Of a stretch of 64,000 nucleotides of DNA, positions 1,676 to 61,607 are shown in pieces. This DNA is from Thermoanaerobaculia bacterium. Lineage in GTDB: Bacteria > Acidobacteriota > Thermoanaerobaculia > UBA5066. The stretch lies in NCBI GenBank assembly GCA_963719225.1, contig CAVRAY010000001.1, positions 896,001 to 960,000 of the forward strand, in the 5' to 3' direction. The position numbers were made by a program, and so were the translations under genes. Each line of letters opens with the position of its first letter. Position 1 is the stretch's first letter. Below the pieces are notes generated by a model, which saw nothing but the letters and a program-made list of their open reading frames with translations, ran no database searches and was not told the origin of the DNA.

Positions 1676-2389
1676 GTTCCGAGCTTCCGCTCCCTCGACA
1701 GAATCGCGGCCGAAATCGTCGCCTGCCGCGCCTGCCCGCGCCTCGTCGCCTGGCGGGAGGAAGCGGCGGATCACCCCCCTCGCCGTTTCCGGGGCCAGCG
1801 ATACTGGGCACGGCCGGTTCCCGGATTCGGCGAGCCCGGCGCCCGGCTTCTCGTCGTCGGCCTCGCGCCGGCGGCGCACGGAGGAAACCGGACCGGGCGC
1901 ATCTTCACCGGCGACTCGTCCGGCGACTTTCTCTTCGCCGCCCTGTATCGAGCGGGCTTCGCGAACCAGCCCGTCTCCGTGTCGCGGGAGGACGGCCTCG
2001 CGCTGCGCGACGCCTGGATCGCGGCGTCCGTGCGCTGCGCCCCGCCGGACAACAGGCCCACGCCGCGCGAGTTCGCGACCTGCCGCCCGTTCCTCGTCCG
2101 CGAAATCGCCGCGCTGGAAAACCTGCGCGTCGTTCTCGCCCTCGGCGCCCTCGCGTGGCGGTCGGCCCTGGAAGCGCTCGAAAAGAACGAGGTCGTGATC
2201 CCGCGCCCGCGTCCGGCGTTCGCGCACGGCGCGGAGGTCGATCTGGGCGGCGTGACCCTCTTCGGCTCGTACCACGTCAGCCAGCAGAACACGAACACGG
2301 GGCGGCTGACGGCGGCGATGTTCGATGGGATTCTGAAGCGAGTTAAGAGGGAAATGGGGGAACGGAAGAAAGATTTTCTTAGAAGGTAA
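1676..2389 (+). CDS. udgB: Uracil-DNA glycosylase family 5 (UdgB); start codon uncertain
   Basis: CRACPRLVAWRE Fe-S motif, YWARPVPGFG, GLAPAAHGGNRTGRIFTGD, RCAPPDNRP, YHVSQQNTNTGRL. Confidence 0.85.
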   Translation, partial: VPSFRSLDRIAAEIVACRACPRLVAWREEAADHPPRRFRGQRYWARPVPGFGEPGARLLVVGLAPAAHGGNRTGRIFTGDSSGDFLFAALYRAGFANQPVSVSREDGLALRDAWIAASVRCAPPDNRPTPREFATCRPFLVREIAALENLRVVLALGALAWRSALEALEKNEVVIPRPRPAFAHGAEVDLGGVTLFGSYHVSQQNTNTGRLTAAMFDGILKRVKREMGERKKDFLRR

Positions 2390-2468
2390 TTAGGCCGGCG
2401 GGCCATGCCGGCCATGGTGGAAGCTCTTCGGCGCATCTAGCGCCGGGTCCAATTCACTTTCTAAGAAA
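2375..2468. repeat. Imperfect ~26 bp terminal inverted repeats bounding a ~94 bp element (contains a TTTCTTNGAAGG motif pair)
   Basis: Left arm TTTCTTAGAAGGTAATTAGGCCGGCG; right arm CGCCGGGTCCAATTCACTTTCTAAGAAA. Confidence 0.6.
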
Positions 2469-2498
2469 CACGCCCATTACCTCTGCGTATCAGCCCCC

Positions 2499-59169: not shown

Positions 59170-59967
59170 CTATTCCTCTGGCGGAATGTAGAAGTCCGTC
59201 AGCCGCCGCATGACGTGGCGGGGGTCCTCCATATGGAGGAAGCGGGAGGCGCCGGCGAAGGTGGCTCCCTCCGCCCCGCGGATCCCCTGAACGATCGCGG
59301 CCGCGCAGCGCAGCCTTTCGGGATCCTCGCGGTCGCCCACGAGGACGATCGTGCGCGCGCGGATCTCGCCGAGCCGCTCGGCCTGCGTCGGCCCGGAGTG
59401 CGGCGGACGGGCGAGCGATCCCCCCGCGACGCGCGCGCGTCCGTAGATGGTCTGGAGGCGCTCGAAGGGCCCTTCCAGCTCGCGCGCGACGTCGAAGGCC
59501 GGCGAGGCGAGCCATTTTTCGTCCATCGCGGCGCGCGGCGAGCGCGCGAAAGCCGAGAGCAGGTCGCGCCGCGCCGCGAGCGTCTCCTCTCTCCACGGGA
59601 ACCCCTCGAGCGTGGGCGCGAGGAGCGCGAGGGAGAGCGTCCGAGCCGGAAAGTCGAGCGCGAACTGGAGCGCGACCTCGGCGGCGTCGTCGTGGGCGAG
59701 GAGATGCGCTTTCTCCGTCGAGAACCAGTCGAGGAAGGAAGCCATCTCGGCGGCTTCGTCGGCGAGCGAGATCGGCTCGGGCGCGTCGCCCGAGCGCCCG
59801 TGGCCCCTTCGATCGAAGCGCAGCGCGCGAAAGCCCGAGGAGACGGCGGTGGCCGGCGCCTCGAGAAGGTCCGCGTCCGCGAACGAGCCGTGGAGCAGCA
59901 CGACCGTCTCGCCCTCGCCGCCGACCTCGTAGTAGAAGCGGTGCCCCGAAAGGCTCGCGTACGGCAT
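59170..59967 (-). CDS. Alpha/beta-fold hydrolase-like protein with atypical catalytic motifs
   Basis: YYEVGGEG..VVLLHG, FDRRGHGRS, AHDDA elbow, VLVGDRE. Confidence 0.8.
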   Translation of the reverse strand: MPYASLSGHRFYYEVGGEGETVVLLHGSFADADLLEAPATAVSSGFRALRFDRRGHGRSGDAPEPISLADEAAEMASFLDWFSTEKAHLLAHDDAAEVALQFALDFPARTLSLALLAPTLEGFPWREETLAARRDLLSAFARSPRAAMDEKWLASPAFDVARELEGPFERLQTIYGRARVAGGSLARPPHSGPTQAERLGEIRARTIVLVGDREDPERLRCAAAIVQGIRGAEGATFAGASRFLHMEDPRHVMRRLTDFYIPPEE

Positions 59968-59975
59968 CGGCGGGC

Positions 59976-61607
59976 TCAGGCCGGCGCGGCCGCTTCGATG
60001 CGGCCGGCGACTCGGCGTCCGCGACGACGCCTCCGGCGCTTCGGGGGCGCCGTCGAAGACGGAAGTGGAGGCTCCGGGGGCTCCGCGCCGAACCCTCCCG
60101 GCGGCAGGTCGAGCCGAAATGCCTCACGCGTCCAGAAGTCCACAGCGAGGAGGGAGATGGGAGATTCGGAAGAAGATTCTTCGAATGGAGAGACGGAAGA
60201 AGAGATGGAGGAACGGAAGGAAACGGGGATTTCTTTGAAGGTGGGTGGGGCTACCGCGGCAGGCTCGTGCGCCGAGATGGGCGTCAGCTGGGACTCCGGT
60301 CTCAGCGCGCGCGGTGTCGCCTCCTGCGAAGCCGCCACCGGAGCTTCCGGAGCCTCCCTCTTCACCTTCGAAGAAATCTTCGGCGCCGGAGGCGCCGTCT
60401 TCTCTTCCCGTGACGCCGCAGGCGCCGCGAAGAGCGCGTTGTCCGCGAACTCCACGGGGATCTTCATTCCGATGAGGCGCTGGATCGCGTCGAGCGAGAA
60501 CACGTAGTCTTCGTCGGCGAGGGAGATCGCCTTGCCCGACTGGCCGGCGCGGGCCGTCCGTCCGATCCGGTGAACGTAGTCCTCGGGGTCCTGGGGAAGG
60601 TCCACGTTGATGACGTGTGTAACGCCGTCGATGTGGAGCCCCCGCGACGCGACGTCCGTGGCGACGAGCAGCGGCAGCACACCGCTCTTGAAGTCCTGGA
60701 GGATCTTCAGGCGCCGTGGCTGCGGAATGTCTCCCGTGAGCGCGCCGATGCGGAATCCGTGCCTCTCGAGGTTCGTGACGAGGCGCTCGGCGAAGCGCTT
60801 CGTGTTCACGAAGAGCATCGTGCGCTCGACGCCCTCGCGTCTCAGAAGGCCCAGCAGCAGCGGAATCTTCTCGCGCTGCGAGACGTGGTAGAGCACCTGG
60901 GTGACGCGGTCGGCGGTGATCTGCTCGGGCCGGATCTCGATCTTCTTCGCGTCGTGCATGTGCTCGTACGCGAGCTCCATCACGCGGAGAGAAAGCGTCG
61001 CGGAGAAGAGCATGGAGTGCCGCCGGCCGGGCGGCGGGCAGCGCCGGAGAATGCGCCTGAGGTCCTTGATGAAGCCGAGGTCGAACAGGCGGTCGGCCTC
61101 GTCGATGACGAGCGACTCGACCTCGCCGAAGGACGTCGCGCCCTGTTGTTCGTAGTCGAGGAGGCGACCGGGCGTTCCGATGAGGAGATCGCAGCCGGCC
61201 CGAAGCTGGTCGCGCTGGCGGCCGTAATCGATGCCGCCGAAGACGGTCACGATGCGCATCTTCACGAAATGCCCGAGGGCGCGCGCGTCTTCCTGGATCT
61301 GCACGGCCAGCTCGCGTGTCGGCGCGACGATGAGCGCCCGCGGGTTCGGGGAGCCCTTGTGGCGCTTCGCCCGGATGAAACGGGTGAAAATCGCCACGAG
61401 GTACGCGGCCGTTTTTCCCGTGCCCGTCTGTGCCTGGGCGGCGACGTCCTGACCCGCGAGGAGAAGGGGAAGCGTCGCGGCTTGAATGGGAGTCGCCCGT
61501 ACGAATCCGCATCCCGCGATCCCCGCGCTCACGGCGTGCGGGAGCTTCAGGTCGGCGAAGTAGACGTCGGAAAGGTGATCGGAAAATTTCCCCGCAGGAG
61601 CGGTCAT
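59976..61607 (-). CDS. rhlB: DEAD-box RNA helicase, RhlB-like
   Basis: AQTGTGKT, PTRELAVQI, DEADRLFDLGFIKD, SAT, YVHRIGRTAR; low-complexity C-terminal tail. Confidence 0.82.
   Translation of the reverse strand: MTAPAGKFSDHLSDVYFADLKLPHAVSAGIAGCGFVRATPIQAATLPLLLAGQDVAAQAQTGTGKTAAYLVAIFTRFIRAKRHKGSPNPRALIVAPTRELAVQIQEDARALGHFVKMRIVTVFGGIDYGRQRDQLRAGCDLLIGTPGRLLDYEQQGATSFGEVESLVIDEADRLFDLGFIKDLRRILRRCPPPGRRHSMLFSATLSLRVMELAYEHMHDAKKIEIRPEQITADRVTQVLYHVSQREKIPLLLGLLRREGVERTMLFVNTKRFAERLVTNLERHGFRIGALTGDIPQPRRLKILQDFKSGVLPLLVATDVASRGLHIDGVTHVINVDLPQDPEDYVHRIGRTARAGQSGKAISLADEDYVFSLDAIQRLIGMKIPVEFADNALFAAPAASREEKTAPPAPKISSKVKREAPEAPVAASQEATPRALRPESQLTPISAHEPAAVAPPTFKEIPVSFRSSISSSVSPFEESSSESPISLLAVDFWTREAFRLDLPPGGFGAEPPEPPLPSSTAPPKRRRRRRGRRVAGRIEAAAPA

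What the first reader, a model, noticed from the sequence alone, without database searches (positions are those of the whole stretch)
2375..60376. Dispersed AT-rich motif TTTCTTNGAAGG(T) in head-to-head pairs, read in all six frames inside genes
Seen: exact TTTCTTNGAAGG at 2375+, 6791+, 14875+, 15007-, 51476+, 51550-, 60230+ and 60365-, with near matches at 2457-, 6142+, ~14793- and 52250+. Four inward-pointing pairs span 94 bp (2375-2468), 144 bp (14875-15018), 86 bp (51476-51561) and 147 bp (60230-60376). Many copies are preceded on their own strand by a purine-rich A/G tract (2345-2373, 51427-51475, 60148-60229, and the pyrimidine tracts 51563-51610 and 14806-14824). The motif is translated as ISSKV/ISLKV (purN, rhlB, nth), FLRR* (udgB), FFEG and LLRN (MidA), PSKK (nth) and TFKE (rhlB). 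That covers all six frames and forces AT-rich codons (CTA, AGA, TCT, GTA), so the constraint is on DNA, not protein. Assuming ~2/3 GC and independent bases, far fewer than one exact copy is expected in 64 kb. Inference: a binding-site system for an unknown chromosome protein (analogous to DNA-uptake sequences, parS, matS or Noc/SlmA sites), or the ends of a degenerate coding-tolerated miniature element. I do not recognise this motif.
Basis: partly seen in the sequence, partly recalled or inferred. Interest (0 to 1): 0.85.

Follow-up and report, generated by a model that had tools for sequence, protein, structure and literature searches.

The report
Facing DNA-word pairs written over genes
One genus of uncultured Acidobacteriota keeps hundreds of copies of a short AT-rich DNA word per chromosome, mostly as facing pairs about 60-230 bases apart that are written over ordinary genes and thin out towards the replication origin, and these pairs likely serve as two-armed docking sites for a chromosome-folding protein that is still unidentified.

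Summary
Observation confirmed and extended. The 12-mer has 8 exact copies in the window (0.04 expected) and 238 in the genome (1-6 expected; 162 in called genes versus 1-8 after synonymous shuffling). A profile finds about 870 sites; adjacent opposite-strand sites face inward 282 times, outward 14. All 24 same-genus genomes carry 77-351 exact copies, 16 genomes of two other families 0-5. Sites are kept between species at synonymous positions, and 32 of 48 testable genic pairs enclose native coding sequence, so these are not inserted elements. Arms do not covary, show no helical phase and no replichore polarity. Density falls from dif towards the origin on both chromosome arms (rho -0.75), and dif itself is flanked by pairs. 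REPIN, MITE/RPE, inverton and KOPS/AIMS membership tests failed; uptake-sequence membership is inconclusive. Best reading (0.5): two-armed binding site of a DNA-bridging nucleoid protein. No tested candidate protein tracks the motif.

The parts
2375..2386 (+). Arm core (36 bits), last codons of a uracil-DNA glycosylase family gene; purine tract 2345-2373 upstream; left arm of pair 1
2457..2468 (-). Arm core (30 bits), intergenic before a DUF2911 gene; right arm of pair 1 (centres 81 bp apart)
6142..6153 (+).
6255..6266 (-). Arm core (20 bits); right arm of pair 2 (centres 112 bp apart)
6791..6802 (+). Exact arm core (30 bits) in purN-type formyltransferase; no inward partner at 11 bits or more listed in the window
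14793..14804 (-). Arm core (24 bits) in the MidA-like methyltransferase; orphan here, its inward partner about 215-280 bp upstream is present in most genus relatives and deleted in this lineage
14875..14886 (+). Exact arm core, left arm of pair 3 in the MidA-like gene; position conserved across the genus, absent from 8 outgroup orthologues
15007..15018 (-). Exact arm core, right arm of pair 3 (centres 131 bp apart); interior is native Methyltransf_28 sequence
51476..51487 (+). Exact arm core, left arm of pair 4 in the C-terminal tail of the endonuclease III gene; purine tract 51427-51475
51550..51561 (-). Exact arm core (37 bits), right arm of pair 4 (centres 73 bp apart); tract 51563-51610
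60176..60187 (+). Extra outer arm (27 bits) 54 bp before the next one, DEAD-box helicase tail
60230..60241 (+). Exact arm core, left arm of pair 5
60365..60376 (-). Exact arm core (35 bits), right arm of pair 5 (centres 134 bp apart)
14402..15499 (+). Host gene: MidA-like SAM-dependent methyltransferase (PF02636) carrying three arms
51407..52339 (-). Host gene: endonuclease III (HhH-GPD, 4Fe-4S) with pair 4 in its tail
59976..61607 (-). Host gene: DEAD-box helicase with pair 5 in its tail

Best explanation
Each facing pair is likely a two-armed binding site on double-stranded DNA for a lineage-restricted nucleoid protein, which would grip both arms at once and fold the 60-230 bp between them into a small loop, predicted to help organise the origin-distal part of the chromosome. 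Shown: an arm is about 45 bp, a purine tract followed by the core W-TTTCTT-N-GAA(G/A/T)G and a second short purine run; arms face inward, lie in any frame and on either strand of genes, are kept by selection or biased conversion, and arise and decay one at a time by substitutions, small insertions and tandem duplications in tolerant protein loops and intergenic DNA. Inferred: protein binding, bridging, and the role. Geometry (inference): in a U-turn of duplex DNA two inverted sites lie side by side pointing the same way, which explains an inward-only bias without base pairing; the commonest spacing (about 66-83 bp between centres in intergenic pairs) is close to the ~73 bp tip loop modelled for supercoils.
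For: Inward 282 of 296 adjacent opposite-strand pairs; 643 of 821 strong sites have an inward partner, 26 an outward one. No arm-to-arm covariation in 76 independent exact pairs of other genomes (variable base matched 37 times, 36.3 expected), which argues for recognition of duplex sequence, not pairing. No preference for gene strand (285 sense, 278 antisense) or for transcribed 3' ends (intergenic pairs in 17 of 364 divergent and 5 of 125 convergent gaps). Synonymous-site conservation. Site clusters per 100 kb fall with distance from dif (rho -0.75, 38 windows; left arm -0.85, right arm -0.64) while control AT-rich words and purine tracts outside sites do not; the fall holds in intergenic (84 to 37 per 100 kb) and coding DNA (24 to 8), and in DNA alignable to a second species (origin region 10-12, terminus region 21-23). 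Sister-genus genome G174 has 3 exact copies within 350 kb of dnaA, 10.3 expected. dif is flanked by two pairs in G000, and 10 of 11 genus loci have a site within 420 bp of the adjacent parB2 stop. Exact pairs of other genomes peak at 74-77 bp (33 of 76 in the 65-95 bp range searched); tip loop ~73 bp from PMC6301789 (passages).
Against: No binding protein found: ParB2 beside dif has nearly the same helix-turn-helix in motif-free outgroups; the 164-aa tandem-HTH-like protein is family-wide, including genera without the motif; two four-helix-bundle-like genes also fail to track it. No 10.5-bp phasing of spacings, which short rigid loops would often show. Partnered sites are not kept better than solo ones in G003 (47 of 59 versus 14 of 20), and an orphan arm stays strong after its partner was deleted. 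The gradient may partly reflect gene age or constraint: GC3 also drifts slightly (rho 0.42), most G174 sites checked are orthologous to G000 sites so that genome is not independent, G174 shows origin depletion but no peak at dif, and in the G019 assembly one side of dnaA is site-rich. In G000 the variable base matched between partners more than by chance (109 versus 93, p 0.005, one of 16 positions) and the arms do pair in 207 of 300 predicted folds.
Confidence: 0.5

Rival explanations
1. The arms are recognised as a single-stranded DNA or RNA stem: domesticated descendants of an inverted-arm cassette such as the four-helix-bundle units seen in a neighbouring family, kept because a helper protein or nuclease acts on the folded stem.
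For: Outgroup G033 has inward arrays of 7-8-mers around short spacers and around 4 of the 4 four-helix-bundle genes whose flanks I read. G000 keeps two degenerate four-helix-bundle-like genes, one in 19 of 21 genus genomes. Cores pair in 207 of 300 predicted folds; the transcribed strand is slightly more stable (p 0.057). Some pairs are whole in-frame insertions (4 of 48, 12 unclear) and arms duplicate in tandem.
Against: No covariation in 76 independent pairs; partner duplexes barely beat permuted partners (-34.3 versus -33.5 +/- 0.5); no G.U asymmetry by transcription direction (570:536 genic, 151:143 intergenic); interiors do not fold better than shuffles; no gene is bracketed by arms in G000 and neither four-helix gene is; no RAYT, DUF559 or PDDEXK_3 gene found in G000.
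Confidence: 0.18
2. The motif is a DNA uptake or transfer signal that spreads by molecular drive; a receptor needing two facing arms (a hairpin bend entering the uptake pore) would favour pairs.
For: Same anatomy as uptake sequences: genus-restricted, in all six frames, enriching the peptides it encodes (for example FEEI 54 versus reversed 9; compare PMC2817400, passages), sitting in variable protein regions, missing from stretches of 40-100 kb. ComEC is present.
Against: ComEC is also present in motif-free genomes; uptake sequences are not known (recalled) to form 60-230 bp facing pairs inside genes or an origin-terminus gradient; density is about 0.2 per kb.
Confidence: 0.16
3. The pair is the site of a two-site enzyme that needs head-to-head orientation but no fixed spacing (as Type III and Type ISP restriction enzymes do, recalled), used as a self mark or to load or unload a translocating machine.
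For: Strict inward orientation with free spacing and no helical phase; the inward excess fades beyond about 500 bp; paired pattern not found in IMG/VR.
Against: Restriction sites are avoided, not enriched (recalled); no such enzyme was looked for or tied to the motif here; the 45-bp arm is far longer than such sites.
Confidence: 0.08
4. The pairs are recombination sites of invertible or excisable segments.
For: Inverted orientation; contigs of related strains differ in length at two window pairs (51422-51533 and 60141-60363).
Against: Partner arms differ at variable bases; interiors are conserved coding sequence in essential genes in one orientation across 21 MidA loci and in tRNA ligases; none of the 15 joints listed changes strand (42 more were not shown).
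Confidence: 0.02

Closest known systems
MatP/matS (E. coli Ter macrodomain) and Noc/SlmA sites
   Same: Dispersed, lineage-restricted DNA word with a position bias along the origin-terminus axis and no strand polarity (matS described in PMC4786541, passages).
   Different: Here about 870 asymmetric arms in facing pairs over the whole chromosome with a 3-4-fold gradient, not a short palindrome confined to or excluded from one domain; no cognate protein known.
DNA uptake sequences (Pasteurellaceae USS, Neisseria DUS)
   Same: Hundreds of copies written into genes in all six frames, shaping peptides (PMC2817400, passages).
   Different: Obligate-looking inward pairs 60-230 bp apart, long purine flanks, origin-terminus gradient; no uptake bias shown.
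REPINs/BIMEs with RAYT transposase
   Same: Inverted doublets with preferred spacing near 70-110 bp (71 and 110 bp in PMC3116915, passages).
   Different: Two thirds of sites are in coding DNA, arms enclose native gene sequence, arms do not covary, doublets are not better kept than singlets, no RAYT found in G000.
KOPS / AIMS
   Same: Abundance rises towards the terminus (PMC5993296, abstract).
   Different: No leading-strand bias (TTCTTAGA 120:116); G000 has a separate polarised G-rich octamer.
MITEs and Rickettsia palindromic elements
   Same: Inverted ends, occurrence in frame inside genes (PMC10969869, passages).
   Different: No shared interior; most interiors are native and pre-date the arms.
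Four-helix-bundle (PF05635) cassettes with inverted heptamer arrays
   Same: Inward-facing arms in the same order of bacteria (G033).
   Different: Arms here are single ~45-bp units, not 7-8-mer arrays, and bracket no cargo gene.

Membership tests
REPIN/BIME | Doublets of inverted repeats with preferred spacing | tested here: met
   282 inward versus 14 outward, mode 66-91 bp
REPIN/BIME | Extragenic location | tested here: not met
   563 of 821 sites in called genes
REPIN/BIME | Cognate RAYT transposase | tested here: not met
   PF01797 not found in G000, G003, G009; one hit in G013; genomes 97-99% complete
REPIN/BIME | Doublets better conserved than singlets; complementary arms | tested here: not met
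   47 of 59 versus 14 of 20 kept; no covariation
MITE / RPE | Shared interior inserted as a unit | tested here: not met
   32 of 48 native, 12 unclear, 4 insertion (11 of the 32 are one pair repeated in paralogous kinases); interior families cover 53 of 282 pairs, the largest being those kinases
MITE / RPE | Target-site duplication and a parent transposase with the same ends | tested here: inconclusive
   No gene bracketed by arms in G000; target-site duplications were not searched for
DNA uptake sequence | Over-represented in coding DNA in all frames, lineage-specific | tested here: met
DNA uptake sequence | Competence machinery with a sequence-specific receptor | tested here: inconclusive
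   ComEC in 5 of 5 genomes, two of them motif-free; no receptor identified
DNA uptake sequence | Biased uptake of DNA carrying the motif | not testable with these tools
   needs a cultured or reconstituted system
KOPS / AIMS | Abundance rises towards the terminus | tested here: met
KOPS / AIMS | Leading-strand bias | tested here: not met
   plus and minus sites equal on both sides of dif; 120:116
matS-type organiser site | Position bias along the origin-terminus axis without polarity | tested here: met
matS-type organiser site | Confined to one macrodomain; single palindromic site | tested here: not met
   sites over the whole chromosome, 8.5 per 100 kb even around dnaA; asymmetric arms
matS-type organiser site | Cognate binding protein | tested here: inconclusive
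   five hand-picked candidates profiled, none tracks the motif; MatP itself not searched
parS/Noc (ParB family) | ParB-family protein whose recognition helix differs where the motif occurs | tested here: not met
   ParB2 helix nearly identical in motif-free outgroups; the one canonical parS-like site lies by dnaA (consensus recalled)
Inverton | Matching inverted repeats and flipped interiors | tested here: not met
   raw reads of this organism were not available
Four-helix-bundle cassette | Gene bracketed by inverted 7-8-mer arrays | tested here: not met
   (met in outgroup G033)

The most novel reading that the evidence does not exclude
A sequence-encoded loop map for a bacterial chromosome: several hundred convergent arm pairs, overwritten onto essential genes, tell a dimeric protein where to pin supercoil tips or micro-loops, graded from origin to terminus and framing dif; a bacterial counterpart of a convergent-site rule at the 100-bp scale, possibly recruited from the arms of a vanished mobile cassette.
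Probability: 0.3. Interest if true: 0.9.

Novelty: new variant of a known kind. Interest (0 to 1): 0.74.

Why it matters
Genome-wide words strong enough to rewrite codons in tRNA ligases and repair enzymes are known from few systems (uptake sequences, KOPS/AIMS, matS and kin), and none tested here needs two facing arms around native DNA. It also explains odd Glu/Lys-rich and Ser-rich inserts in this genus's proteins as by-products of a DNA signal.

Tried and rejected
Helical phasing of spacings: none. Arm covariation, duplex energy, G.U asymmetry, interior folding: none or marginal. Raised mutation between arms: four-fold-site divergence 0.41 equals background at the same protein identity. Replichore polarity: none. 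Cargo gene between arms in G000: none; a genus-wide search for long pairs could not be run. Analogous motif in motif-free relatives: none in 400 kb of G028 or 200 kb each of G159 and G166 next to dif. Phage copies: 0 paired hits; 59 single 18-mer hits all lie in DNA under 50% G+C and were set aside as chance. Families not found in G000: PDDEXK_3, Y1_Tnp, DUF559; DUF1931 histone-like in 0 of 41 genomes. Candidates: ParB2 (order-wide), HTH-TPR gene beside glmU (39 of 41), 164-aa basic protein (18 of 19 family genomes, 1 of 181 others; model pLDDT 70 with two three-helix units; no significant fold match, weak top rows are tandem HTH DNA-binding domains; a wider fold search was not obtained), two four-helix-bundle-like genes. 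The reversed-profile control scored high because the motif resembles its own reverse; column-shuffled profiles (4-11 hits at 16 bits) were used instead. No RNA holder listed. Literature searches for the motif or taxon gave nothing relevant by title or abstract start; they cover only the open library. Site positions around dif in the sister genus rest on exact-match lists, not on profile scans.
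Full report
Observation. The 12-mer TTTCTTNGAAGG occurs eight times in the window at the stated places, against 0.04 expected. 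Near matches and flanking tracts are as described, and translation in the host genes gives the stated peptides in six frames. A profile adds a fifth pair (6142+/6255-) and an extra arm at 60176+.

Genome-wide scale. The window lies on contig C1 of a 4.75-Mb, 68% G+C assembly. It has 238 exact copies; Markov models of order 1-5 predict 1.2-6.2, and the nine most over-represented 8-mer pairs headed by CTAAGAAA belong to the motif. In my gene copies fall in coding DNA, versus 1-4 after genome-wide and 4-8 after within-gene synonymous shuffling (8 shuffles each). An iterated 28-position profile gives 871 sites at 16 bits or more; three column-shuffled profiles give 4-11. The arm reads purine tract, W-TTTCTT-N-GAA(G/A/T)G, then a second purine run; purine excess extends about 30 bp upstream and 20 bp downstream of the variable base. 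Cores cover 0.22% of codons but hold 24.6% of all TTA codons.

Pairing. Of 296 adjacent opposite-strand sites within 350 bp, 282 face inward and 14 outward; 95 neighbours share a strand, many as tandem duplicates 21-45 bp apart. Spacing between centres has median 104 bp and 5-95% range 57-226, without 10.5-bp phase; intergenic pairs cluster at 66-83 bp. The inward excess fades beyond about 500 bp. Of 821 sites at 18 bits, 563 are coding, 236 intergenic, 22 at edges.

Distribution among relatives. All 24 same-genus genomes have 77-351 exact copies; 16 genomes of two other families of the order have 0-5. In a class-wide draw of 200 with a slightly looser pattern, 11 genus genomes have 141-329, sister-genus G174 and G082 have 65 and 7, six other family genomes 0-2, and the other 181 have 0-30, the highest with a similar control count. 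Unpublished genomes G025, G030, G155, G193 and G196 contribute rows to the outgroup tallies and G025 one outgroup row of the MidA alignment; no conclusion rests on them alone.

How the arms sit in genes. In MidA-like orthologues four site positions recur across 22 genus loci and none in 8 outgroup loci. The interior of the window pair is ordinary domain sequence; the arms replace outgroup residues and fix unusual synonymous codons (locus L021 left out for a frameshift). The first of the four sites lies in a 20-40 residue in-frame insert that is deleted in G000 and four others, leaving 14793- orphaned yet strong. Of 159 G000 genes with pairs, 52 had a homologue in the outgroup stretches held; 48 pairs at 38% identity or more were classed: 32 native interior (11 are the same 91-bp pair in paralogous kinases), 12 unclear, 4 insertions. 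Against G003 (82% identity) 42 of 55 G000 sites in aligned DNA are shared, 4 weak, 9 absent, with gains and losses by point changes, short insertions and duplications. A/T third positions are kept 37 of 51 times in cores and 63% in flanks versus 31% elsewhere; interiors are more variable than average, as expected for loops.

Not base pairing, as far as sequence shows. Partners matched at the variable base slightly more than chance in G000 (109 versus 93; one of 16 positions) but not in 76 independent exact pairs from other genomes (37 versus 36.3; flanks also null). Duplex energies of true partners were within 1.6 s.d. of permuted ones, although cores do pair in 207 of 300 folds, as any inverted repeat would. 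Pairs are as frequent between divergent genes as between convergent ones.

Chromosome position. dnaA, parAB and a parS-like site lie on C2 near 326-335 kb; a dif-like site (consensus recalled) lies at C1 2,037,568-595 at the GC-skew maximum, directly after a second parA-parB operon. About 190 kb of C2 is a 70-85% identical inverted duplicate, probably from a related organism, so C2 was left out of the gradient. Sites per 100 kb fall from 31.5 near dif to 7.5; with clusters as units rho is -0.75, on both arms, while control words show no trend and GC3 a slight one. The fall holds in coding and intergenic DNA and in conserved DNA of two species. G174 is depleted around dnaA (3 versus 10.3) but has no peak at dif, and most of its sites checked have G000 counterparts. 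G019 does not give a clean test: dnaA and dif are 0.73 Mb apart in that assembly and one flank of dnaA is site-rich (100 of 133 matches listed). dif is flanked by two pairs in G000, 10 of 11 genus loci have a site nearby at varying positions (output cut for seven outgroup loci), and G174 has one 50 bp from dif while G082, G075, G159 and G166 have none. Orientation relative to dif is mixed and there is no replichore polarity.

ParB2 matches at 62-71% in 14 of 16 outgroup genomes with nearly the same recognition helix. A 164-aa basic protein picked by eye from 143 small basic proteins has no Pfam family, two predicted three-helix units, often an RGRP-containing linker, and a C-terminal helix; it is in 21 of 24 genus genomes but also in motif-free genera of the family. 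Two degenerate four-helix-bundle-like genes were checked because outgroup G033 carries inward 7-8-mer arrays around such genes and around short spacers: one is order-wide, the other is in 19 of 21 genus genomes plus motif-free G213 and missing from G174; neither is bracketed by arms.

Mechanism. The data show a polar duplex-type signal selected in inward pairs with free spacing above about 57 bp, blind to gene strand, graded along the replication axis. I infer a protein dimer or oligomer that binds both arms and loops the DNA between them; in a U-turn inverted sites lie side by side, and the preferred spacing is near the ~73 bp tip loop in PMC6301789 (passages read). This is inference (0.5). 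Rivals: a folded-strand signal descended from inverted-arm cassettes (0.18), uptake or transfer drive (0.16), a two-site enzyme (0.08), inversion sites (0.02).

Comparison with known systems. It shares six-frame embedding with uptake sequences (PMC2817400, passages), doublet geometry with REPINs (PMC3116915, passages), the terminus trend with AIMS and KOPS (PMC5993296, abstract; PMC4786541, passages) and in-gene location with RPEs (PMC10969869, passages), and fails a defining test for each except uptake sequences, where the decisive test cannot be run. Five searches of the open library found no description (listings only; supplements not read). Three earlier AI notes of this scan describe the same motif pairs on other genomes; they are not independent support. 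A search of those notes for the terminus gradient returned nothing. Statements on Type III enzymes, restriction-site avoidance and the dif, parS and KOPS consensuses are recalled.

Verdict. A real, genus-wide, selected, undescribed paired DNA signal; probably a new architecture of chromosome-organising site, with its protein still to be found. Interest 0.74.

Noticed in passing
G000:C1:2037568-2039524 (L149) and L150-L162: A second parA-parB operon sits directly beside dif, followed by an lptF/G-like gene; parB2 is found across the order and dif follows it in all 11 genus loci and in the outgroup loci whose output I saw. A partition system at the terminus is unusual; one paper search found nothing on it.
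   Followed up: partly
G033 loci L190-L209, L210, L214-L216: Four-helix-bundle genes each bracketed by their own inward 7-8-mer arrays, plus many gene-less copies with short spacers; this scan has noted such cassettes in over 200 genomes.
   Followed up: partly
G000:C1:3836045-3836539 (L350:1045-1539, minus): 164-aa basic protein without Pfam family, two predicted three-helix units and often RGRP repeats, confined almost wholly to this family (18 of 19 versus 1 of 181 other class genomes; 43 representatives in 1.8 billion): a candidate new nucleoid-associated protein in its own right.
   Followed up: partly
G000:C1, both replichores: A polarised G-rich octamer family (for example TGGGGGAG 62:4 towards dif) looks like this organism's KOPS.
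   Followed up: no
G000:C2:6000-223000 versus 610000-801000: About 190 kb inverted duplicate at 70-85% identity, probably a misjoined piece of a related organism; 14 of 15 aligned sites are shared between the copies.
   Followed up: partly
window 5512-6583: The purM-like AIRS domains are split over two frames near 5860-5880: a frameshift or sequencing error.
   Followed up: no
G000:C1:2293000-2320000: Tandem array of about nine Ser/Thr kinase genes, each keeping the same 91-bp arm pair inside the kinase N-lobe.
   Followed up: partly
window 9544 (minus), 16S rRNA 3' end: The 16S end and spacer start give a weak (13-bit) profile match; probably chance.
   Followed up: no
G082:C1:2715950 (L397): A second dif-like site far from the chromosomal one, possibly an integrated element.
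   Followed up: no
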